Below, piece by piece: positions 15,357 through 24,912 of a stretch of 57,081 nt of DNA. Source of the stretch: a virus (taxonomy: Duplodnaviria > Caudoviricetes); the IMG/VR virus record IMGVR_UViG_3300027038_000001, positions 1 to 57,081 of that record. The stretch is one strand, 5' to 3'. The position numbers and the translations under genes were made by a program. The notes under the pieces were generated by a model. The model was given only the letters and a program-made list of their open reading frames with translations, searched no databases and had not been told where the DNA came from. How positions within the stretch are numbered: the stretch's first letter is position 1; every line of letters starts with the position of its first letter.

Positions 15357-16394
15357 ATGAAGATCAAAACGAAGAAAGTCATTCCGATGGCGGAAGTGCC
15401 CGCTCGGTTTTATGACCCAGAGCGGGACGGCGTGACCTTTTCTCTTCTTACGACCTTCAAAAACTGTCGAGAGCGCGCACGTCTATTCTTAAACGGATGG
15501 ACGTCGCGCAGCAACAGTCTGGGTATGGTTTTCGGAAGTCTGGCACATGGAGTAAACCAGCAGATCTACGAAGACGTGCGAACTGGAAAGCTGACCGAAC
15601 TTCCAAGCGAGGCCTACATCAAGAAGGCCGCTGCCAAGGTCGAGGCTCTATGGAAGAAAGAGAACCCCAGAGCCGATGCCGACTCGAAGGAATATCTCGA
15701 GTATTCCATGATCCTGTTGGAGGCGGTCATGCCCGCCTACTTTAAGTACTGGAAGAAGGATTTCCAGTTGATCTGGGAACGTGTGGAGACGGTGTTCAAG
15801 ATCCCAATCGAGGTTCCGATGGGAGGAGAACGCAACGTCGTCAAGAAGACGTTCATCCGTGGCAAGATTGACGGGTCGTTCAAACGAAAGGCGAACGGAC
15901 GGCCTCGCCTCTTCGAGACGAAGACCAAGACACGGTTGGGAGAAACCGGAGAAGGGAATCTCGCAGACATCCTTCCGCACGAACTCCAAGTGAACATCTA
16001 CTTGTTGTATCTGTGGTGGGTCGACAAGAAACTACCGGAGGGTGTCCTCTACAACATCATCCGACGACCGAGCCTCCGTCAGAAGAAAAGTGAATCATTG
16101 GTGAAGTTCGCCAGACGAGTGGCGGCGGACATTTCACTACGACCGGAGTTCTACTTCATTCGGTTGGAGATGTTCGTCGAGAAGAAGGATCTCGAGAAGC
16201 AGGAGCTCGAACTTCGAGATCTGGTGTCTGACTTCATCCTGTGGTGGAACGGATTGGCCGGTCACTACAAGAACTCAGACGCGTGTGAGAACAAATACGG
16301 CACCTGTGCGATGTTGCCGATTTGCAGTCGTGGAGATTACACGGGATTCTTCAAGCGAGATACCGTGTTCAGAGAATTGGCCGACGAGCTATAA
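15357..16394 (+). CDS. PD-(D/E)xK (RecB/Cas4-like) exonuclease
   Basis: S.L..FKNC, FGSLAH, VE, RGKIDG, FETKT, QVNIY and C-terminal C..KYGTC...IC. Confidence 0.85.
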   Translation: MKIKTKKVIPMAEVPARFYDPERDGVTFSLLTTFKNCRERARLFLNGWTSRSNSLGMVFGSLAHGVNQQIYEDVRTGKLTELPSEAYIKKAAAKVEALWKKENPRADADSKEYLEYSMILLEAVMPAYFKYWKKDFQLIWERVETVFKIPIEVPMGGERNVVKKTFIRGKIDGSFKRKANGRPRLFETKTKTRLGETGEGNLADILPHELQVNIYLLYLWWVDKKLPEGVLYNIIRRPSLRQKKSESLVKFARRVAADISLRPEFYFIRLEMFVEKKDLEKQELELRDLVSDFILWWNGLAGHYKNSDACENKYGTCAMLPICSRGDYTGFFKRDTVFRELADEL

Positions 16395-16654: not shown

Positions 16655-16923
16655 AAGCGCCGAAAAAACTGACACGTGCGCAACGGGCGCTGCTGTTAGA
16701 AATGGCGGACAGCAAACGCGTCATTCTGATTATGAAGCATTCGAAGGAATGGATGGGTTTGAAATACTCGATCAATTCATTCCCGATTCGACAGTTGCGA
16801 GCGGACATGGTCGCGCGGCTAGCTCGATTGGGTTATCTGCAGATCAACAAACGGGGATTCTACGAACTCACTATCTCGGGAATGTTGGAGGCTTCTTTGG
16901 AGAAGCAACGGAGGCGGAAATGA
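16651..16923 (+). CDS. Small winged-helix-like protein
   Basis: KLTRAQRALL...LARLGYL...YELTISG; ATGA overlaps. Confidence 0.6.
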   Translation: MKAPKKLTRAQRALLLEMADSKRVILIMKHSKEWMGLKYSINSFPIRQLRADMVARLARLGYLQINKRGFYELTISGMLEASLEKQRRRK

Positions 16924-17735
16924 ACGTGGTCGTCATTGGTGGTGGGTTCGTTGGACAATTAGTTCAATGGGCGATACCCGAAGCGCGAATCCTCGATTGG
17001 CGAAATAATGCACCTGCCGATCATTTGGAAACGCGAATTGGTCCTCGGTATCTTTGGGAGCCGATTCCCGGAGTGCCGTCGTCGTCGTTCGACGTGGTGA
17101 CGACGATCGACAATCAGCCACCCACTCTTGAAAGCATTCTGACTTACAAGAAGAAGGTAGGCAAGGAAAATGATGGCGGGAACTGGGATGTACAATTCCG
17201 CCATCATACTACCGGATTTCGATCCCAACTTCCCGTCCCCAGAATCGAATTTGGGAAACGAGTGACTATGATCGACCACCGAAGTCGAGTACTCTGGACA
17301 AACAATCTCGACGTTGTTCATTATGATTGGTTGGTCAGTACGATCCCATTGCCGGCGTTGCTTGATATTTTCGGATCAAGCCACGCATCGTCATTCAGAT
17401 CGCAAGTCATCTACATGACGCGGACACCAATTCCACAGGACGTCATTGGCGACGTCTTGCATATGAATTACGTATCTGACCCACAGACACCGATCTACCG
17501 TGTGACCGACTCTCTTGGAGAACGATTTTCAGAATCGCTGGTAAGGATCGACTCGTCAGCGATCAAGATCATGCCGGGAAAGATCTTCACATATCCAGAA
17601 GCTGAACATCTTCTCAATCAGCTGGGGGCGCTTCGGTGCAAATGCTTCGGGAGATTCGGTACTTGGCGTCCAGACGAATTGGCGCATGAGACGTGGTCAC
17701 TTATCATTGCTTGGAGGGACGAGATCTATGGATGA
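16920..17735 (+). CDS. FAD-dependent oxidoreductase (UDP-galactopyranose mutase/amine oxidase-like fold)
   Basis: N-terminal VVIGGGFVG Rossmann motif, GPRYL, YDWLVSTIPLP, C-terminal FGRFGTW. Confidence 0.75.
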   Translation: MNVVVIGGGFVGQLVQWAIPEARILDWRNNAPADHLETRIGPRYLWEPIPGVPSSSFDVVTTIDNQPPTLESILTYKKKVGKENDGGNWDVQFRHHTTGFRSQLPVPRIEFGKRVTMIDHRSRVLWTNNLDVVHYDWLVSTIPLPALLDIFGSSHASSFRSQVIYMTRTPIPQDVIGDVLHMNYVSDPQTPIYRVTDSLGERFSESLVRIDSSAIKIMPGKIFTYPEAEHLLNQLGALRCKCFGRFGTWRPDELAHETWSLIIAWRDEIYG

Positions 17736-18720
17736 CCTCAAACGGTTGATGGAAGATCAACGTATCTTCAATCGCCAGATCTTCAAACGAAATGGTGCAC
17801 CACCAGAAGCGGTATTGGAGCGGCTACGTCACCTGTCTCTGGGGATGATTGAAGAAAGCATTGAATTCCTTCGAACATTCGAATGGAAGCCGCACAGAAA
17901 GAAGGTGGGGTCGTTGAGCAACCTTGCTCATAGCCACGAAGAGCTGATCGACATGTTCAAGTTCTGGCTGTCGTTGGCTGACTTGACGGACTTTCCGTTG
18001 GATCGTTTAGAGGAGTTGTACCACGCCAAGAGTCGTGTGGTGCGATATCGGTATCAGACCGAATGGATGTCGTCGATCGACCGTCCGTGCGTGGTTGTCG
18101 ATATCGATAATGTCCTCGCCGACTACATCCGTGGTTTCTACAACTGGGCTCAAACTCGAGTTCCAGTTGGATTGACTGCAGATGAAACCGCGGTGCTGCG
18201 CGTTCGTTTGAAAGCGGCGGCAGACGACGGTCGATGGCTTGATGCCGCTGCAGTGGGAATGGAACCAGCTAAGTGGCAATCGATCAAACACGAATTTCGA
18301 AGCACCGGCGGCAAGCTTCTGATACCCGTATTTCCAGACGCACGAGGATTTTTGGAGTGGTGTCGCCTTCGGGGTTGGTTGATCTTACTGATCACAAGTC
18401 GACCGATCGATCAGTATCCAAATATCTTCACAGAGACGATCACGTGGTTGACGGAAGCGAATCTACCGTTTGACCGTCTTTGGTGGGCTGATCGGAAAGC
18501 CGAACGACTTGATATGGGCGGCGTGCCGTTGTCTCAAGTCAAATTCGCGGTTGACGACGATTTGAACTACGTCAATCAATTCGCGAATCGCCAAGTCCGA
18601 ACCTATTGGCTTACACGAAGTGTGCTCCGTATGCAAAGTCATTCGCATATCTTCAGTGTTCGTTCGTTAACCGACGTTCAAAACCATTTCGATGCAGGAG
18701 ATCCACCACCATGGAAATAA
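17728..18720 (+). CDS. Fusion of all-alpha dUTPase/dCTPase-like NTP pyrophosphatase and HAD 5'(3')-deoxyribonucleotidase
   Basis: N-terminal EESIE...WKPHRK...EELIDMFKF; C-terminal VVDIDNVLAD, ITSR, K, VDDD HAD motifs. Confidence 0.85.
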   Translation: MDDLKRLMEDQRIFNRQIFKRNGAPPEAVLERLRHLSLGMIEESIEFLRTFEWKPHRKKVGSLSNLAHSHEELIDMFKFWLSLADLTDFPLDRLEELYHAKSRVVRYRYQTEWMSSIDRPCVVVDIDNVLADYIRGFYNWAQTRVPVGLTADETAVLRVRLKAAADDGRWLDAAAVGMEPAKWQSIKHEFRSTGGKLLIPVFPDARGFLEWCRLRGWLILLITSRPIDQYPNIFTETITWLTEANLPFDRLWWADRKAERLDMGGVPLSQVKFAVDDDLNYVNQFANRQVRTYWLTRSVLRMQSHSHIFSVRSLTDVQNHFDAGDPPPWK

Positions 18721-19967
18721 TTGACGCGAAACATCGACCGCATGCAGTGCACACCGGCGAGAAGCCGACCAACCCGATCACGGAGGGTCCGGAGTCGTTG
18801 CATGTCACGTTGGACCGATGGGGTCCGAAAGACAACCTGTTCACGTCAATGTACGATGCGCTGCAAGCGAACTGGGGCGACTCTCCGAGTCGTACCGTCG
18901 ATCGGAGCACATGCGACGGGTCCTGTCAGAACTGGGAACAGCATCGTACTGGATGGTGCTCGTTGACACCGGACGAACGTGTCTACGTCGAGTCCTGTTT
19001 CGCTGGCAAGACGTTGCAGCAGGTGCTCGAAGGAATTACGTTCGACTTCTGCATCGATGGTGTGACACGAGCGTTCACACACCAAAATGTCCGCACCCGT
19101 GTTGGTGCCGGTTTCATGCAACATGGCGGACGCGACAACGACTGGCGCCACCGTCCGTGGACGATGCCTGAGACGATGCGTCGGATGTGCGAAGCCGACG
19201 ATGCCGCGATCTCGGCCGACCCTGTGGGGTCTGAACTACTTGATGCGTTGGGTTTGAAACATTGCATCACCGATTGGAAGCCGATCAACGCCTATGTCGA
19301 ATCGACCTTCCGATTCGATGGGTTCTCGGACGGCATCAGGGGACGGATCGAACACCACGTCATGAATGCTCGCAAGCTTTACGCTGCGTTGGTCGATGCC
19401 GGCATTCCTTGGCAGGACGCCAGACGGGTGTTGCCGATCGGGATGCAGACCTACATCCACGACCAGTACAACTATCTGGCGTTGTCCGGCGTGTTGGCCA
19501 ATCGGCTCGAACATATCATGGACTGGGAATTCAATTGCGTCGCCCAGCTCATGCTGCGTGAGATCAAGATGAAGTGTCCACCGTTGCTGTCGAAATATCT
19601 TGGCAGTCACAGCGACAAAGCCAAGGCTGCACGGTTTGCCGGTTTGGAGTCTTGGCCTCCGGATCGGAAGTATCCAAGCCCGTACGACGACTGCGCCACT
19701 TGTGGACACGGCGGTAACCACCATCGAAAGTACGACGCCGAAGTGGGTGCGGATGTGCCGCCGGGAGAAGAGGTTTGCTCCGCGTGTGAGAACGAAGGGC
19801 CGAACCTCGCGGTCTCGCCACTACATCGATTTGTTCCGAAGGATCGATTGCCACGGCAACATCGACCAGAGCAGATGCCGTTCTTCGTCTTGCATCCGGA
19901 CAGCATGGCTGGGGGTCCGATCAAATGGATCTCCACCAACGGCGAATACCCACACGACCGGGTATGA
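18711..19967 (+). CDS. thyX: Divergent ThyX-like flavin-dependent nucleotide-modifying enzyme
   Basis: F.IDGVTRAFTHQ.VR, YAALVDAGIPWQDARRVLP and WE motifs match ThyX; the signature is altered to RTRVGAGFMQHGGRD; Cys-rich extensions. Confidence 0.8.
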   Translation: MEIIDAKHRPHAVHTGEKPTNPITEGPESLHVTLDRWGPKDNLFTSMYDALQANWGDSPSRTVDRSTCDGSCQNWEQHRTGWCSLTPDERVYVESCFAGKTLQQVLEGITFDFCIDGVTRAFTHQNVRTRVGAGFMQHGGRDNDWRHRPWTMPETMRRMCEADDAAISADPVGSELLDALGLKHCITDWKPINAYVESTFRFDGFSDGIRGRIEHHVMNARKLYAALVDAGIPWQDARRVLPIGMQTYIHDQYNYLALSGVLANRLEHIMDWEFNCVAQLMLREIKMKCPPLLSKYLGSHSDKAKAARFAGLESWPPDRKYPSPYDDCATCGHGGNHHRKYDAEVGADVPPGEEVCSACENEGPNLAVSPLHRFVPKDRLPRQHRPEQMPFFVLHPDSMAGGPIKWISTNGEYPHDRV

Positions 19968-20257
19968 CGACTTTCACATTCCGTGGGAGTCGCTTCTTGG
20001 AACGAGCTTTGCTCGAGGCTCAGTCCAAGTTTCAACAACGAATCGAGCAGGAGCTACGAACCACCATGGCGAAAGCAGCAAAGAAAGCAGCAGCGAAAGT
20101 CGACAAGAAAGCGGCGGCAAAAGCGGCACGAGTCGCAAAGTCGGCCGCACGCGTTCAGAAGCGCATCGACAAGATCCAGAAGCGCATCGACAAGTTGACC
20201 GATAAAAAGGTCAAGTTGGAGAAGAAGCGCGATCTCGTCGGCGGCAAGAAGAAGTAG
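19964..20257 (+). CDS. Lys/Ala-rich histone H1-like small basic protein
   Basis: MAKAAKKAAAKVDKKAAAKAAR...; start is 19964 (ATGA overlap) or 20066. Confidence 0.6.
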   Translation: MTTFTFRGSRFLERALLEAQSKFQQRIEQELRTTMAKAAKKAAAKVDKKAAAKAARVAKSAARVQKRIDKIQKRIDKLTDKKVKLEKKRDLVGGKKK

Positions 20258-20266
20258 AAGGAGGAT

Positions 20267-21040
20267 ATGGCTGTGCGCGTGACGACAAGAAAGTTCGCAG
20301 TGCTGATTCCATCCAAGGGTCGACCTGAGGTGCTTCTGAAAACGCTGCGTGCACAGCCGTTTCTGAATCGTCCTTCGACTTACATTGGCATCGAAAATGC
20401 CGAAGAAAAGAAGTATCGAAAGGTGCAGAAAGAGTTCAAACGTATCACCTGGGTCAGGTATAACAACCCTGTTGCCAGCGGCACCCTGGCCAGGGAAGAA
20501 TTACGGAAAGCCGCAACCGCCGTGGGATACGAACGCTACGTAGTCACCGACGACAATACGCGTTTCAGTCAGAAGAGTCTACTGACTTTGGTGCATGCGT
20601 CGTTCGTGTATCCGATTCAGCCATGCATCGTCGCCGGTGTGCACGGCACGGCGGAACACTTCGATGCGGGTCGAATCAAACGCACATTGGAGACCCATGA
20701 CGGTCTTCGATTCTACAAGAAGCGTTCAGCAATGTTCTGGGCGCTCCCACACAAGTTCTACTCCAAGATGCGTTACACGGTTGACGAAGGTTGCATGGAC
20801 GATGTGCAGGTCACCTTCGCTGCGTTCGACCAAGGCATCACCGCACAGGTGGTGTGCATGGATGCCCCATTCGCGAAGAAGCGATACAATCCGGGAGGCT
20901 ACGGAGGAATCAACGAACGTGTTCGGAAGGTTGGATTGGCGCTGGTTCGATTCTCCAAGACCCATCCGGATTACATGGCAAAGGTTCGCGTGACCTTTCC
21001 TTGGACACAAATCGAGAAGACACTGAAGGAGAAGTCATGA
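20267..21040 (+). CDS. GT-A fold glycosyltransferase (TET-associated/GREB1-like type)
   Basis: VLIPSKGR, AR, VVTDDN, MDDV, NPGG motifs; AGGAGG RBS. Confidence 0.75.
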   Translation: MAVRVTTRKFAVLIPSKGRPEVLLKTLRAQPFLNRPSTYIGIENAEEKKYRKVQKEFKRITWVRYNNPVASGTLAREELRKAATAVGYERYVVTDDNTRFSQKSLLTLVHASFVYPIQPCIVAGVHGTAEHFDAGRIKRTLETHDGLRFYKKRSAMFWALPHKFYSKMRYTVDEGCMDDVQVTFAAFDQGITAQVVCMDAPFAKKRYNPGGYGGINERVRKVGLALVRFSKTHPDYMAKVRVTFPWTQIEKTLKEKS

Positions 21041-22176
21041 AGGTTCGAGTACCAACAAAACCGTTCGTTCAAAATCCGTGGTCCATCCAACTCGAAGTAG
21101 TTGAGGGTTGCAACTACTCGTGCTGGTTCTGCGGCATCCATTCTATCCGTTCAAAGTCAACTCCAGGAGTAGGCTGGAACGATTTCCGCGAGATGCCGGT
21201 CGAACTCGTCAAGGAGATGTTCAAGGAAACGCGGACATGGCTCCCCGGCGGTGTGCGCGTCGAGTTGGACAATCACGGCGAGCCAACGTTGCACAAGCGA
21301 TTCCCAGATGTGGTCGCCGCGATTCGTCGCGATCCGAAGGCCCACATCCAGCTGCAGACCAACGGATCGCAGATCGAGGAGTGGAAGGTCTTTGAGGAAC
21401 TGGTTACGGAGTGGTTTGCTCGTGGCCTCAATCTCCTTGCGATCAACGCCTACAAACGTTGGTGGGGCAAGCCGCACGAGGAACACAAGACCCGCTACGA
21501 TATGTTCATGGCCTACGCAAAGCAGTACGCCAAGAAACATCCGAACATCCATCGTGTTGTGGATCACTACTATGACAACCCCGATCATCTGTCGATCTAT
21601 CGACGCTATCCGACCAAACTTCAACAGATTTTTGTGTTGGACGATCTCGGGGAAGTCAATGCCAAGAAGCGAACGGAGTCTGGCCGCCCCGTCTCCAAGG
21701 ACATCAACAATGAAGCCGGCAACTCTCCGGAGAAACCGTTACAGAATCTCCTTGGCCAGGAACCGATTACCGAGCCATTGCAGAAGAAGTGCACACGGCC
21801 CTTCCGCGAACTGAACATGGGCTACAACGGTGTCGTCCCGGTTTGCTGCTACGATTGGTCAACGCAGATCCCTGTCGGCAAGTTTCCCGATCAGTCATTA
21901 CAGACGATCTGGGAATCGACGCAACTCAATGCGATCCGAGAGTTGTTGTACCGGAAGAATCGCAACATGACTCCGTGTTCCGTCTGCAGCTACAACGGTG
22001 GATGGAGGCAGGGTCTCATCAAGGCTCCCGGTCTAAAGGCATCGGATGAGGAACTGCAACATGTTTTGGCGGATCATCTGAAGACAATGCGTGGGTACGT
22101 GTTCCCGACCGCACCAGTTGAAGTGGCTGGCACAGTGATTCCGATTCAGTCACTTCGAATCAAGAAGAGGGAGTAG
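21037..22176 (+). CDS. Radical SAM protein with SPASM/twitch domain
   Basis: CNYSCWFC (CxxxCxxC), HGEPTLH, QTNG; C-terminal CTRPF...G.V.VCC.D...C..C. Confidence 0.92.
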   Translation: MKVRVPTKPFVQNPWSIQLEVVEGCNYSCWFCGIHSIRSKSTPGVGWNDFREMPVELVKEMFKETRTWLPGGVRVELDNHGEPTLHKRFPDVVAAIRRDPKAHIQLQTNGSQIEEWKVFEELVTEWFARGLNLLAINAYKRWWGKPHEEHKTRYDMFMAYAKQYAKKHPNIHRVVDHYYDNPDHLSIYRRYPTKLQQIFVLDDLGEVNAKKRTESGRPVSKDINNEAGNSPEKPLQNLLGQEPITEPLQKKCTRPFRELNMGYNGVVPVCCYDWSTQIPVGKFPDQSLQTIWESTQLNAIRELLYRKNRNMTPCSVCSYNGGWRQGLIKAPGLKASDEELQHVLADHLKTMRGYVFPTAPVEVAGTVIPIQSLRIKKRE

Positions 22177-22179
22177 AAG

Positions 22180-22383
22180 ATGGAATGGGATAGTTGGCCG
22201 AACGAAGGGTATCCTTGTGCTGAATGTGGACGTCGTGGCAAGTGTACGGAGGAATGCAAGCTTCGGCAAAACGATCCGGCTGATCAGGGACCACGATGTC
22301 TAGACTGTGGGCAAACCGGAGGTGCGCATATCGCTTCTCCGCCAGCGTGTCCTCAACTAACACGACAACGAGCAGAGGAGTAG
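22180..22383 (+). CDS. Small Cys-rich hypothetical protein
   Basis: CAEC..C...C and CLDC..H..C; GGGAG RBS. Confidence 0.5.
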   Translation: MEWDSWPNEGYPCAECGRRGKCTEECKLRQNDPADQGPRCLDCGQTGGAHIASPPACPQLTRQRAEE

Positions 22384-23291: not shown

Positions 23292-24368
23292 ATGAAGAAA
23301 AAGAGCAAGGGTAAGACCAGCAAGTCCTCGGGCGGCGGCAAGACGGTCGACTTCGGCAAGCACCTCCGCGGGATGAACAAGCATCTCGAGAAAGCCAAGG
23401 AGGCGGCGTCCGAAGGCGGGTTCGAAGAATTCAACGACGGCAAGTATCGCATGCAAGCCGTCGAAGCGAAGGTCGGCGTCTCGAAGAACAAGCGCGTGCA
23501 GGTCGTCATCACTTGGAAGTTCCTGGAAGGGGACTACAAGGGCAAGCAGAAGTTGGACTTCGAAGGTCTGACCGAAGAGCACCTGCCGTATCTTCTCCGC
23601 AAGCTCGAGGCGATGGGCTACGACACGTCGGAGCTCACGGATCTGGAAGATGAACTCAAGCAGATCCTCGACGACATCAAGAAGTCGAAGCCGAAGTGCA
23701 AGGTCTCGTTGAAGACCAAGGGCGAGTTCCAGAACCTCTACGTCAACGGCGTGCTCGGCGAGGACGACGAAGCCGAGGAGGACGACGAGGACGAAGAAGA
23801 GGACGACGAGCCCAAGAAGAAGAAGGGCAAGAAGAAGAAAGACGACGACGACGAGGACGAAGACGACGACTCCGACGATGACGAGGAGGAGGACGACGAC
23901 GAGGACGAAGAAGAGGACGATGAAGAGGAAGAGGAGGAGGAACCGAAGAAGAAGTCCAAGAAGAAGTCGAAGTCCAAGAAGGACGACGACGACGACGAGG
24001 ACGAGGAAGACGAGGACGAAGATGAAGACGATGACGACGACGAGGAAGATGACGACGACGAGGAGGAAGAAAAGCCCAAGAAGGGCAAGGGCAAGAAGAA
24101 GAGCAAGGATGACGAGGAGGATGAGGACGAGGAGGACGACGAAGAGGAAGAGGTCGAAGACGAAGTCGACGTCGTCGTCGGCTCGGTCGTCAAGGCCGAT
24201 TCCAAGAACGGCCGCGTGAAGGGCGAGGTCGTCGAACTCTTCGAAGCCGAAGGCAAAGTCCTCATCAAGACCGACAAGGGTAAGACGCTGAAACTCTCCG
24301 CGGACAAGATCGTGTCCGTTGAAGAGTCGCCGGCGGAGTCGGTGCCGAAGAAAAAGAAGAAGCGCTAA
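23292..24368 (+). CDS. SSB-like (DUF669-type) protein with long alternating acidic/basic tract and C-terminal SH3/KOW-like domain
   Basis: GGFEEFNDGKY...SKNK...WK.LEGDYKG N-terminal domain next to the Sak4-like gene; ~140 aa of D/E and K blocks; VGSVV...GEVVE domain; ends PKKKKKR. Confidence 0.7.
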   Translation: MKKKSKGKTSKSSGGGKTVDFGKHLRGMNKHLEKAKEAASEGGFEEFNDGKYRMQAVEAKVGVSKNKRVQVVITWKFLEGDYKGKQKLDFEGLTEEHLPYLLRKLEAMGYDTSELTDLEDELKQILDDIKKSKPKCKVSLKTKGEFQNLYVNGVLGEDDEAEEDDEDEEEDDEPKKKKGKKKKDDDDEDEDDDSDDDEEEDDDEDEEEDDEEEEEEEPKKKSKKKSKSKKDDDDDEDEEDEDEDEDDDDDEEDDDDEEEEKPKKGKGKKKSKDDEEDEDEEDDEEEEVEDEVDVVVGSVVKADSKNGRVKGEVVELFEAEGKVLIKTDKGKTLKLSADKIVSVEESPAESVPKKKKKR

Positions 24369-24456: not shown

Positions 24457-24471
24457 TTGGATGAGGCACAT

Positions 24472-24912
24472 ATGACTGTCGACGAAATGAGCTTGCAGAT
24501 GGAACAATTCCTCCATGACTGCAATCTGTTACAGTGGAAGAAGAACAAGGACTACCACCCAGATGGGGTGGCCATGTTGGAGATTCTCCAGACGGCGTTC
24601 GAAACCGGCATCACGGTCGAACAAGACCTCTGGGCGAGGACACGGAAACAAACGTCGGCGTTGCGCCGGTTCGTAATTGAAGGACATGTGGAGTCCGAGT
24701 CGCCCGAATCGCGAATGACCGACATTGCGGTCTACATGTCCATGATGGCCTTCTGGGTGGCCAATCGAAAACAGATTCTCGAAGATGCATTGTTCTGGTT
24801 GTCAAAGCACCGACATTGCGAAGACCCGCCGACCTGTGGCACTCCGAATCACTTCTGCGATCGCTGTGCATTCGTCACTTGGTTGAGCGACTATGCTAGT
24901 ACGAGTCGCTAG
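24472..24912 (+). CDS. DUF1599/Nmad1-like (MazG-fold) nucleotide-modification-associated protein
   Basis: LLQWKKNKDY...K...R...ES.ESRMTDIAVY pattern; C-terminal Cys cluster. Confidence 0.55.
   Translation: MTVDEMSLQMEQFLHDCNLLQWKKNKDYHPDGVAMLEILQTAFETGITVEQDLWARTRKQTSALRRFVIEGHVESESPESRMTDIAVYMSMMAFWVANRKQILEDALFWLSKHRHCEDPPTCGTPNHFCDRCAFVTWLSDYASTSR

What the first reader, a model, noticed from the sequence alone, without database searches (positions are those of the whole stretch)
16920..22176. Candidate new DNA-hypermodification pathway: FAD enzyme, dUTPase-HAD, variant ThyX, glycosyltransferase and radical SAM
Seen: a tightly packed, mostly overlapping run of genes inside the replication arm, with the motifs listed in the features; a DUF1599-like gene and an atypical PolA lie 2-3 kb downstream. 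Known: phage pathways that replace a base combine a pool-clearing pyrophosphatase (T4 gp56 dCTPase; MazZ/DatZ), a thymidylate-synthase homologue (T4 gp42) and post-replicative transferases (T4 glucosyltransferases; TET-associated GTs). Radical SAM and flavin enzymes act in thymidine hypermodification of M6-like phages. Those systems use ThyA-fold enzymes or TET/JBP oxygenases. Inference: here a ThyX-fold enzyme may make a non-thymine pyrimidine, which is then glycosylated and tailored by the flavin and radical SAM enzymes. I do not recognise this combination. I see no dNMP kinase, so a host kinase would be needed.
Basis: partly seen in the sequence, partly recalled or inferred. Interest (0 to 1): 0.9.

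Follow-up and report, generated by a model that had tools for sequence, protein, structure and literature searches.

The report
ThyX-based phage DNA sugar-modification cluster
An uncultured phage carries a nucleotide-pool module built round an unusual ThyX enzyme, followed by a sugar-transferase and radical-SAM pair that in other phages sits in thymidine-hypermodification clusters, so it probably makes sugar-decorated DNA by a route not yet described.

Summary
The genes are real. Six packed + strand genes (16920-22176) lie in a complete 57-kb phage genome. They encode a 271-aa UGM-fold flavoprotein (A), a MazG/dUTPase-like domain fused to an NT5C nucleotidase (B), a divergent ThyX (C), a Lys-rich protein (D), a GT-A glycosyltransferase weakly matching TAGT (E) and a radical SAM/SPASM enzyme (F).

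They are two units, not one pathway. A-B-C precede each other in 12 of 12 relatives with enough upstream flank. D-E-F occupy a variable slot that holds GT+rSAM, GT+GT, methyltransferase+GT, GT alone or nothing.

A is not a tailoring enzyme. A-like proteins accompany His-less ThyX and a HAD phosphatase in cultured phages (PLot, Yara, JG024).

The decisive result concerns F. In 78 other viral loci holding its relatives, neighbours include TAGT (37), a ThyA-fold enzyme (28) and 5-hmdU DNA kinase (26). The window has no ThyA fold, TET/JBP or 5-hmdU kinase, so ThyX-like C is the only candidate source of a hydroxymethyl acceptor.

Verdict: the hypermodification reading is partly supported (about 0.5), as a new variant of a known kind. 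No chemistry is shown. The DUF1599 claim is not confirmed.

The parts
16920..17735 (+). A: 271-aa FAD-type Rossmann protein with a reduced UDP-galactopyranose-mutase fold. It belongs to a family of small (~270-300 aa) phage flavoproteins that accompany ThyX.
   Evidence: GGGFVG motif. Profile against PDB UGM 4dsg, E 2.2e-7. AF2 pLDDT 83. Foldseek top hits are UGMs, E ~1e-10, TMq 0.6, TMt 0.35. The family has 677 representatives at E<=1e-3 and 170 at <=1e-10.
17728..18720 (+). B: fusion of a MazG/dimeric-dUTPase-like NTP pyrophosphatase (about residues 1-110) and an NT5C-type HAD 5'(3')-deoxyribonucleotidase (about residues 120-325).
   Evidence: phrog_173 5.7e-10, phrog_420 8e-8, phrog_415 2.2e-5. 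Profile against 1w2y dUTPase, E 9e-4. Invariant E43, E72, D75 and HAD D125, D127, T223, K257, D276. Atlas structure TM 0.7-0.8 to NT5C clusters; viral dUTPase_2+NT5C fusion clusters exist.
18711..19967 (+). C: 418-aa divergent ThyX, with N- and C-terminal extensions and a variable Cys4 insertion.
   Evidence: Pfam Thy1 1.3e-17. NCBIfam thyX 53.3 bits, below the 87.9 cut-off. The alignment to T. maritima ThyX chains keeps the two Arg of 'DAR' and 'NRL'. The motif is RTR..HGGR, against [QE][ST]xR in 9 of 9 other ThyX outside this lineage compared.
19964..20257 (+). D: 97-aa Lys/Ala-rich coiled-coil protein that opens the variable module.
   Evidence: Aligns with ORFs at the same place in 3 GT-bearing relatives, L009, L016 and L005. 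In GT-less relatives the ThyX-Sak4 gap is only 79-353 bp.
20267..21040 (+). E: 257-aa GT-A fold glycosyltransferase, a remote relative of TAGT (TET-associated glycosyltransferase).
   Evidence: TAGT 5e-4, below cut-off; relatives 7.5e-5 and 1e-3. phrog_842 1.1e-6. AF2 pLDDT 84. Foldseek PDB hits are GT-A enzymes. BFVD ranks 5, 6, 7, 13 and 28 are TAGT-domain proteins. The family HMM hits 7 GT ORFs just upstream of rSAM relatives.
21037..22176 (+). F: 379-aa radical SAM enzyme with a C-terminal SPASM/twitch auxiliary-cluster domain.
   Evidence: CNYSCWFC motif; Radical_SAM 6.9e-12, SPASM 9.2e-10. N_Twi_rSAM 9e-14, below cut-off. Invariant C252, C270, C271, C314, C317 over 20 sequences. Relatives in 78 other viral loci lie next to TAGT, ThyA-fold and HMUDK genes.

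Best explanation
The region holds two linked units of a pyrimidine DNA-modification system.

Unit 1 (A, B, C) is conserved in the whole phage lineage and acts on the nucleotide pool.
- The MazG/dUTPase-like domain of B splits a pyrimidine dNTP to the dNMP.
- The NT5C domain of B dephosphorylates an unwanted pyrimidine dNMP. This matches the dTTPase plus dTMPase pair of 5-hmdU phages.
- The ThyX-like enzyme C, working with the small flavoprotein A, transfers the methylene of CH2-THF to C5 of dUMP. In this lineage it releases a hydroxymethyl (or other non-methyl) product instead of dTMP.
- Host kinases make the triphosphate, and the phage PolA incorporates it.

Unit 2 (D, E, F) is an exchangeable cassette acting after replication. 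The TAGT-like GT-A enzyme E puts a sugar on the 5-hydroxymethyl group in DNA. The SPASM/twitch radical SAM enzyme F then alters that sugar or its linkage.

Shown: the folds and families, the co-inheritance of A-B-C, the variability of the cassette, and the association of F's relatives with TAGT, ThyA-fold and 5-hmdU-kinase genes.

Inferred: every substrate and product, the pairing of A with C, and the order of steps.
For: (1) A-B-C are adjacent in 12 of 12 related loci with enough upstream flank, and again in L031, L036, L037 and L040.

(2) The slot between ThyX and Sak4 is combinatorial. It holds D+GT+rSAM (window, L005, L007/8/9, L026), two GTs (L013), SAM methyltransferase+GT (L016), GT after Sak4 (L018, L031-L040), or nothing (11 loci with ThyX-Sak4-acidic contiguous).

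(3) All 21 of 21 loci found with the GT family lie in this lineage beside ThyX/Sak4.

(4) Relatives of F: 113 confirmed, best 80 kept, 78 outside the lineage. Within 3.5 kb on the same strand there is TAGT (Pfam 2e-15) in 37 of 78 (19 ending <=400 bp upstream), a ThyA-fold enzyme in 28, HMUDK_hel (3e-39) in 26, and an HD 5'-deoxynucleotidase in 11. 30 of 78 have ThyA or HMUDK. The 7 nearest loci all have TAGT within 3.5 kb of the rSAM.

(5) The HMM of the window's GT family hits 7 ORFs in 7 of 78 loci (E 1e-7 to 2e-4), each just upstream of the rSAM.

(6) The complete genome has no TET/JBP, ThyA-fold or HMUDK match at E<=1.

(7) C keeps the Arg residues aligned with the two Arg of the T. maritima chain. 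It alone lacks the Ser/Thr before the last Arg of the ThyX motif: 9 of 9 other ThyX outside this lineage have it.

(8) Lee et al. 2021 (PMC8989533, passages read) state that 5-hmdU phages encode dTTPase, dTMPase and a thymidylate-synthase-type dUMP hydroxymethylase.

(9) Kropinski et al. 2018 (PMC5977210, passages read) hypothesise that a second Thy1 homologue of phage SP-15 is a hydroxymethyl-dUMP synthase.
Against: - No nucleoside chemistry exists for this uncultured phage.
- The A-like flavoprotein, a HAD/NT5C phosphatase and a His-less ThyX also occur together in cultured phages that lack this GT: PLot, Yara, Xenia2 and JG024. I found no report of modified DNA for them. Unit 1 may therefore simply make dTMP.
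- E is below Pfam's TAGT cut-off (20.5 against 27.5 bits). hhalign to a bona fide TAGT neighbour of an rSAM relative is weak (probability 4.5%). A GT-A fold does not name the acceptor.
- 30 of 78 rSAM loci show none of TAGT, ThyA, HMUDK or HD nearby, and 18 show TAGT only. The pair is therefore not strictly tied to 5-hmdU genes.
- No dNMP kinase was found (and the scans above).
- GT-less relatives keep the same ThyX variant.
- SPASM enzymes are best known as peptide maturases (NCBIfam list).
Confidence: 0.5

Rival explanations
1. Unit 1 is ordinary thymidylate supply, and the cassette works on something else. B's N-domain is a dUTPase feeding dUMP to ThyX-like C. C makes dTMP, with A as its flavin or redox helper. 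NT5C balances pools. GT and rSAM use an acceptor not made by C: a different DNA group, a nucleotide sugar, or a cell-envelope glycan.
For: - A-like, HAD/NT5C and ThyX sets occur in cultured phages: PLot gp61/gp62/gp68, Yara gp50/gp49/gp41, JG024 gp66/gp58/gp60 and the Xenia2 table.
- A-like matches are found in 126 cultured actinobacteriophage records.
- B's best PDB matches are dUTPases.
- C keeps the nucleotide-binding Arg residues.
- 18 of 78 rSAM loci have TAGT but no ThyA or HMUDK nearby.
Against: - It leaves a TAGT-like GT, whose named relatives act on modified DNA bases (PMC13390438, passages read), without any hydroxylated base to act on.
- The GT family was found only in phages carrying this ThyX variant, 21 of 21 loci.
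- The window lineage's ThyX motif departs from the ThyX of the cultured phages at an otherwise constant Ser/Thr.
- A nucleotidase fused to a dUTPase would destroy the dUMP that a thymidylate synthase needs, unless it is dTMP-specific.
Confidence: 0.25
2. The same logic applies to cytosine. B is a dCTPase like T4 gp56. C hydroxymethylates dCMP. E glycosylates 5-hmC in DNA as in T-even phages, and F tailors the sugar.
For: - Characterised or proposed TAGT members act on cytosine derivatives (T6-type second glucose on glucosyl-5hmC; PMC13390438, passages read). phrog_842 is named beta-glucosyl-HMC-alpha-glucosyltransferase.
- B also gives weak matches to dCTP pyrophosphatase 1 (E 0.09-0.16).
- The altered ThyX motif could reflect a change of base.
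Against: - F's relatives co-occur with 5-hmdU DNA kinase in 26 of 78 loci, which points to uracil derivatives.
- A fused pyrimidine 5'-nucleotidase would waste the dCMP substrate.
- The Arg aligned with the one that I recall as contacting the uracil ring is kept. That residue role is recalled, not tested.
Confidence: 0.1
3. D, E and F form a protein or peptide modification cassette. The SPASM radical SAM enzyme and the GT modify the Lys-rich protein D, or another phage or host protein, and have nothing to do with DNA bases.
For: - Many SPASM enzymes in NCBIfam are peptide maturases.
- D co-varies with the GT in the near clade, in 3 relatives aligned with the window.
- GT-A enzymes closest in the PDB include protein O-glycosyltransferases such as GalNAc-T2 and ColGalT1.
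Against: - rSAM relatives sit beside 5-hmdU kinase, ThyA-fold enzymes, deoxynucleotidases and PolA, not beside precursor peptides.
- In the distant clade the GT follows Sak4; that clade was not searched for D-like ORFs.
- No leader-peptide-like gene or protease/transporter lies in the slot.
Confidence: 0.08

Closest known systems
Thymidine hypermodification pathway of 5-hmdU phages (SPO1, ViI, M6, PhiW-14; Lee et al. 2021, PMC8989533, passages read)
   Same: Pool clearing by a dNTP pyrophosphatase plus a dNMP phosphatase. A folate-dependent C5 one-carbon transferase acting on dUMP. Exchangeable post-replicative tailoring genes in the replication module. Relatives of the window's rSAM lie in clusters with 5-hmdU DNA kinase and a ThyA-fold enzyme.
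   Different: There is no ThyA-fold enzyme and no 5-hmdU DNA kinase. A ThyX-fold enzyme plus a small flavoprotein stand in their place. The tailoring is by a glycosyltransferase and a SPASM-type rSAM. The paper's main text does not contain the words glycosyltransferase or SPASM; its supplements could not be seen. aGPT-Pplase was not searched for.
T-even and TET-phage cytosine glycosylation (T4/T6 glucosyltransferases; TAGT, Pfam PF20691)
   Same: A phage-encoded glycosyltransferase in the early or replication region. E gives its only Pfam match to TAGT, and TAGT-domain phage proteins are among its nearest predicted structures.
   Different: E scores below the family cut-off. No TET/JBP or dCMP hydroxymethylase is present. 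The partner is a radical SAM enzyme.
Flavin-dependent thymidylate synthase ThyX (T. maritima TM0449, PDB 1o26 series)
   Same: Thy1 domain. The C-terminal half aligns with conserved 'DAR' and 'R' positions.
   Different: 418 aa against about 220-250. RTR instead of RHR. A one-residue longer loop, with Gly where others have Ser/Thr. Conserved N- and C-terminal extensions and a Cys4 insertion. Below the NCBIfam equivalog cut-off.
Bacillus phage SP-15 second Thy1 homologue gp130 (Kropinski et al. 2018, PMC5977210, passages read)
   Same: A phage ThyX-family protein proposed, without test, to be a hydroxymethyl-dUMP synthase in a phage with glycosylated, hypermodified uracil.
   Different: No sequence relation was found. 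tblastn of C and of A against GenBank phages lists no Bacillus record among the organisms named for C, and gives no match at all for A. The SP-15 side chain is dihydroxypentyl.
UDP-galactopyranose mutase (Glf/UGM)
   Same: FAD Rossmann fold. Nearest solved structures by sequence profile and by fold.
   Different: A is 271 aa against 370-510 and covers only about 35% of the UGM structures (TMt 0.34-0.41). The part that I recall as binding UDP-sugar is missing.

Membership tests
ThyX (Pfam PF02511 / NCBIfam TIGR02170) | Thy1 domain above the Pfam gathering score | tested here: met
   64.6 bits against a cut-off of 24.8, E 1.3e-17
ThyX (Pfam PF02511 / NCBIfam TIGR02170) | Equivalog score for a bona fide thymidylate synthase | tested here: not met
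   53.3 bits against a cut-off of 87.9
ThyX (Pfam PF02511 / NCBIfam TIGR02170) | ThyX motif RHR-x7-S-x-R (motif recalled from the literature) | tested here: not met
   The window has R-T-R-VGAGFMQHGG-R: His is replaced by Thr, Ser by Gly, and the loop is one residue longer. 4 of 6 comparison phage ThyX have RHR, and 9 of 9 other ThyX outside this lineage have [ST]xR.
ThyX (Pfam PF02511 / NCBIfam TIGR02170) | Arg residues of the nucleotide site in the C-terminal half (roles recalled) | tested here: met
   R238 and R265 align with the Arg of 'VAR' and 'NLR' in T. maritima chains and are invariant in 14 relatives
TAGT (Pfam PF20691) | Score above the Pfam gathering cut-off | tested here: not met
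   20.5 bits against 27.5. Relatives score 23.2 and 19.6 bits. hhalign to a true TAGT gives probability 4.5%.
TAGT (Pfam PF20691) | GT-A fold with an acidic DxD-type motif | tested here: met
   AF2 pLDDT 84. Foldseek PDB top hits are GT-A enzymes. D95 D96 N97 are invariant.
TAGT (Pfam PF20691) | Genomic association with an enzyme that makes a hydroxymethyl pyrimidine (TET/JBP or ThyA-type) | tested here: not met
   No Tet_JBP and no Thymidylat_synt match at E<=1 in the complete genome. Only the ThyX-like gene is present.
5-hmdU kinase-dependent thymidine hypermodification | 5-hmdU DNA kinase (HMUDK) | tested here: not met
   No HMUDK_hel match at E<=1
5-hmdU kinase-dependent thymidine hypermodification | ThyA-fold dUMP hydroxymethylase | tested here: not met
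   No PF00303 match
5-hmdU kinase-dependent thymidine hypermodification | dTTPase and dTMPase activities | tested here: inconclusive
   A MazG/dUTPase-like domain and an NT5C domain are present and fused. Substrate specificity cannot be read from sequence.
UDP-galactopyranose mutase | Full three-domain architecture with a UDP-sugar binding domain | tested here: not met
   271 aa. The Foldseek TM-score normalised by the target is 0.34-0.41. The profile matches only the region equivalent to residues 222-338 of 4dsg.
NT5C 5'(3')-deoxyribonucleotidase (PF06941) | HAD motifs I-IV and NT5C-like structure | tested here: met
   D125, D127, T223, K257 and D276 are invariant. TM 0.68-0.82 to NT5C clusters. 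The window protein has no Pfam NT5C hit, but the homologous PLot gp62 scores 32.2 bits against a cut-off of 24.8.
Radical SAM / SPASM | CxxxCxxC cluster motif and a C-terminal auxiliary-cluster domain | tested here: met
   CNYSCWFC; Radical_SAM 46.3 bits and SPASM 39.1 bits, both above cut-off. Five Cys are invariant in the C-terminal domain. Whether it holds one or two auxiliary clusters was not resolved.
DUF1599 (PF07659) | Pfam match in the 24457-24912 ORF | tested here: not met
   No match at E<=1 in the genome

The most novel reading that the evidence does not exclude
A ThyX-fold enzyme, working as a two-protein system with a reduced UGM-fold flavoprotein, has been turned from a thymidylate synthase into the maker of a non-methyl C5-substituted deoxyuridylate (5-hydroxymethyl, or a larger flavin-iminium-derived group). 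The phage replaces thymine with it after destroying dTTP and dTMP with a fused pyrophosphatase-nucleotidase. It then builds a base-J-like glycosylated hydroxymethyluracil, which a SPASM radical SAM enzyme rewrites. This would be a flavin-based route to hypermodified DNA that needs neither a ThyA-fold enzyme, a TET/JBP oxygenase nor a 5-hmdU kinase.
Probability: 0.35. Interest if true: 0.9.

Novelty: new variant of a known kind. Interest (0 to 1): 0.75.

Why it matters
All characterised routes to hydroxymethyl-pyrimidine DNA in phages start from a ThyA-fold enzyme or a TET/JBP oxygenase. A ThyX-fold entry point would be a third, flavin-based origin. It would also give ThyX a second chemistry: hydration instead of reduction of the exocyclic methylene.

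The work exposes two recurrent but undescribed gene partnerships that can be tested in cultured phages.
- A TAGT glycosyltransferase paired with a SPASM radical SAM enzyme, found inside many 5-hmdU hypermodification clusters.
- A family of small UGM-fold flavoproteins that accompany ThyX proteins lacking the motif histidine. It occurs in Pbunavirus and in several actinobacteriophage clusters.

Glycosylated, radical-SAM-edited DNA bases would be new chemistry. They would be of use for restriction-resistant DNA and for enzymology.

Tried and rejected
- blastn of the region, and tblastn of A, E and F against GenBank phages, found nothing.
- The ThyX variant was not found in 185,579 prokaryote species genomes by two peptide patterns. 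No host could therefore be named.
Of two subfamily alignments, one gave a single locus (L043) and the other gave none.
- The first rSAM scan, with four close sequences, recovered only the same lineage. A 20-sequence alignment was needed.
- Complex prediction of C with A gave 'no answer' (score 0.00, controls not run). It says nothing either way.
- L043's upstream ORF is not related to B. Yara gp48 is not a ThyX.
- I first thought that loss of the motif His was specific to A-associated ThyX. A control set showed two His-less ThyX among six 'controls'. One of them (JG024) turned out to carry an A-like gene, and one (RHph_TM21B) did not. The link holds as 5 of 6 against 0 of 4 and is not a rule.
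- Sequencing runs: only assembled contigs from one sediment/groundwater study hold the region. No read-level test for modified bases was possible, and read laying was not used.
- Two ThyX structure papers could not be opened. Residue roles in ThyX are therefore recalled, not cited.
- Searches for a published ThyX-based DNA modification found only the SP-15 hypothesis.

Full report
WHAT IS THERE

The window is a complete 57,081-bp virus record with direct terminal repeats. It has a + strand replication arm and a - strand structural arm. It has no tRNA and no nucleotide match in GenBank phages.

Positions 16920-22176 hold six + strand genes that overlap by 4-10 nt or lie 9 nt apart. I call them A to F.

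GENE BY GENE

A (271 aa) has no Pfam, PHROG or NCBIfam match.
- A profile of A and 10 relatives matches UDP-galactopyranose mutase at E 2.2e-7.
- An AF2 model (pLDDT 83) finds UGMs first. It covers only about a third of them (TMq about 0.6, TMt about 0.35).
- A is therefore a cut-down UGM-fold FAD protein, not a UGM.

B (330 aa) is a fusion.
- The N-terminal ~110 residues match NTP pyrophosphohydrolase phrog_173 (5.7e-10) and dimeric dUTPases in the PDB (E 9e-4). The acidic residues are invariant.
- The C-terminal ~200 residues carry all HAD motifs. They superpose on NT5C 5'(3')-deoxyribonucleotidase clusters at TM 0.7-0.8.
- The same dUTPase_2+NT5C fusion forms viral clusters of 60-68 members.

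C (418 aa) is a ThyX by Pfam (1.3e-17) but falls below the NCBIfam equivalog cut-off.

D is a 97-aa Lys/Ala-rich protein.

E (257 aa) gives its only Pfam match to TAGT, below cut-off.
- Its AF2 model (pLDDT 84) is a GT-A fold.
- TAGT-domain phage proteins are at ranks 5, 6, 7, 13 and 28 among viral models.

F (379 aa) is a radical SAM enzyme with a SPASM/twitch domain.

TWO UNITS, NOT ONE

The ThyX variant recovered 21 related viral loci.
- In 12 of 12 loci with enough upstream DNA, A and B precede C. Four further loci of a more distant clade show the same.
- The stretch between ThyX and the Sak4-like annealing protein is variable.
  - D+GT+rSAM: window, L005, L007/8/9, L026.
  - Two tandem GTs: L013.
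  - SAM methyltransferase+GT: L016.
  - GT placed after Sak4: L018, L031-L040.
  - Only 79-353 bp and no gene: 11 loci show ThyX-Sak4-acidic protein contiguous.

- All 21 loci found with the GT family belong to this lineage.
- The D-like protein was aligned in 3 GT-bearing relatives of the near clade.

THE FLAVOPROTEIN BELONGS TO ThyX, NOT TO THE SUGAR

The A family is large. It has 677 representatives at E<=1e-3 and 170 at <=1e-10 in a library clustered at 50% identity. All of the 150 listed full-length ones are about 270-330 aa.

A-like genes accompany ThyX in unrelated phages.
- Uncultured phage L043, which has a DnaE polymerase. An A-like gene (hhalign 98%) is followed 3 bp later by a 246-aa ThyX, and then by a sulfotransferase.
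- Streptomyces phage Yara. gp50 'oxidoreductase' (family HMM E 1.6e-22; hhalign E 6e-5) is followed by HAD phosphatase gp49. This matches B at 1e-7. A 366-aa ThyX-like gp41 lies downstream.
- Mycobacteriophage PLot. gp61 is A-like (E 2.8e-15), gp62 is NT5C (Pfam 32.2 bits) and gp68 is ThyX.
- Pseudomonas phage JG024. gp66 is A-like (E 1.1e-11), gp60 is ThyX and gp58 is annotated polynucleotide kinase/phosphorylase.
- tblastn with Yara gp50 finds 126 cultured actinobacteriophage records.
- The gene table of the Xenia2 announcement (PMC11385102, passage read) lists oxidoreductase, phosphatase, MazG-like and ThyX-like genes with overlapping cluster distributions.

The ThyX motif was compared in an alignment of 13 ThyX.
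- The His of RHR is replaced (T, S or Q) in all five A-associated lineages.
- It is kept in four phages without an A-like gene: phiCP9O, BCE1, STSV1 and HSTV-3.
- RHph_TM21B is the exception: RNR with no A-like gene found.
- The window's lineage alone also lacks the Ser/Thr two residues before the last Arg (HGGR against [QE][ST]xR in 9 of 9 other ThyX outside this lineage). It also has a one-residue longer loop.

WHAT TIES THE CASSETTE TO DNA

Close searches with F found only the same lineage. Forty-four homologues down to 28% identity exist.

A 20-sequence alignment recovered 113 confirmed viral loci. The best 80 were kept, and 78 lie outside the lineage.

I clustered same-strand ORFs within 3.5 kb and named the ten commonest families by Pfam.
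- TAGT (E 2e-15, above cut-off): 37 of 78 loci. In 19 it ends <=400 bp upstream of the rSAM.
- Thymidylat_synt (ThyA fold): 28.
- 5-hmdU DNA kinase helical domain (E 3e-39): 26.
- PolA fused to a UDG-superfamily domain: 26.
- A second rSAM: 12.
- HD YfbR-like 5'-deoxynucleotidase: 11.
- ThyA or HMUDK: 30 loci.
- None of TAGT, ThyA, HMUDK or HD: 30 loci.

The seven nearest relatives of F all have a TAGT gene within 3.5 kb of the rSAM.

An HMM of the window's own GT family hits 7 ORFs in 7 of the 78 loci (E 1e-7 to 2e-4), each just upstream of the rSAM. HMMs of the A and B families hit none, and ThyX hits one.

The window's genome has no Tet_JBP, ThyA-fold or HMUDK match at E<=1.

HOW IT MOST LIKELY WORKS

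Lee et al. 2021 (PMC8989533, passages read) describe the pre-replicative scheme of 5-hmdU phages. It comprises dTTPase and dTMPase to clear thymidine nucleotides, a thymidylate-synthase-type dUMP hydroxymethylase, and a dNMP kinase.

The window offers a fused pyrophosphatase-nucleotidase (B) and a one-carbon transferase of the other fold (C, with A). It then offers the GT-rSAM pair, which elsewhere sits in 5-hmdU clusters.

I therefore read the region as a thymine-replacement and glycosylation system in which ThyX-like C supplies the hydroxymethyl acceptor. Confidence is 0.5.

That ThyX chemistry passes through an exocyclic methylene that could be hydrated is stated in the discussion of the same paper. 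A second Thy1 homologue was proposed as a hydroxymethyl-dUMP synthase in phage SP-15, without test (PMC5977210, passages read).

The role of F is inferred only from its class (a SPASM/twitch rSAM). The role of A is inferred only from its association with ThyX.

AGAINST THIS READING

- The A/HAD/ThyX set is common in cultured phages for which I found no report of modified DNA. Unit 1 may simply make dTMP (rival 1, 0.25).
- E fails the TAGT cut-off, and its profile aligns only weakly to a true TAGT.
- A third of the rSAM loci show none of the marker genes.
- No dNMP kinase was seen.
- A cytosine version (0.1) and a protein-modification version (0.08) remain open.

NOVELTY

Six literature searches found no described ThyX-based DNA modification other than the SP-15 hypothesis.

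The main text of Lee et al. 2021 does not contain 'glycosyltransferase' or 'SPASM'. Its supplements, which may list such genes, could not be read.

I rate the finding a new variant of a known kind. The logic is that of hydroxymethyl-pyrimidine hypermodification. The entry enzyme, its flavoprotein partner and the GT-rSAM tailoring pair are undescribed.

Noticed in passing
L043:6647-9346 (IMG/VR contig, DnaE-type phage): An A-like flavoprotein, a 246-aa ThyX with an RTR motif and a PAPS-type sulfotransferase (Pfam Sulfotransfer_1, 2e-15) lie in a row. A sulfotransferase beside ThyX in a replication module might activate or decorate a hydroxymethyl base.
   Followed up: partly
GenBank phages PLot (NC_008200 46453-54656), Yara (MH019215 31777-40330), JG024 (NC_017674 46023-50368): Cultured phages carry the same functional set: an A-like 'oxidoreductase', an NT5C/HAD phosphatase and a long ThyX lacking the motif His. 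In PLot and Xenia2 there is also a methyltransferase and a FabG-like reductase between them. A-like genes were found in 5 of 6 phage lineages with His-less ThyX and in 0 of 4 with RHR.
   Followed up: partly
L016:7986-9518 (same contig as L030): In this relative the ThyX variant carries an extra ~90-residue C-terminal domain. Its sequence (…DLGFDELDFLEV…) looks like an acyl/peptidyl carrier protein helix-2 region, with Glu where I recall the phosphopantetheine Ser. Seen in the alignment only.
   Followed up: no
L057-L134, e.g. L119:9317-11893: In 26 of 78 loci with rSAM relatives the family A DNA polymerase is fused to an N-terminal uracil-DNA-glycosylase-superfamily domain (Pfam UDG, 4e-14).
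   Followed up: no
L066:2761-11184: One locus shows the full row: 5-hmdU DNA kinase, TAGT, an unknown 342-aa family, rSAM-SPASM, a ThyA-fold enzyme and an HD 5'-deoxynucleotidase. The unknown 342-aa family recurs in 16 of 78 loci and has no Pfam match.
   Followed up: no
window 23292-24368 (+): A 358-aa protein with a long Asp/Glu-rich low-complexity core broken by Lys runs. It is conserved directly after the Sak4-like gene in nearly all relatives (46-76% identity in its ends). It has no Pfam or PHROG match.
   Followed up: no
window 22180-22383 (+): A 67-aa Cys-rich ORF (two CxxC pairs) lies between the rSAM gene and the Sak4-like gene. It was not examined in relatives.
   Followed up: no
L013:1180-1896: A DUF559/MTES_1575-type endonuclease-like ORF (Pfam 2e-6 to 3e-7) sits at the start of the variable slot in the relative with two tandem GTs. 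This suggests that a homing-type element helps to exchange the cassette.
   Followed up: no
window 15357-16394 (+): A 345-aa ORF upstream of the cluster is conserved in all relatives with flank (47-74% identity). It has no Pfam, PHROG or NCBIfam match.
   Followed up: no
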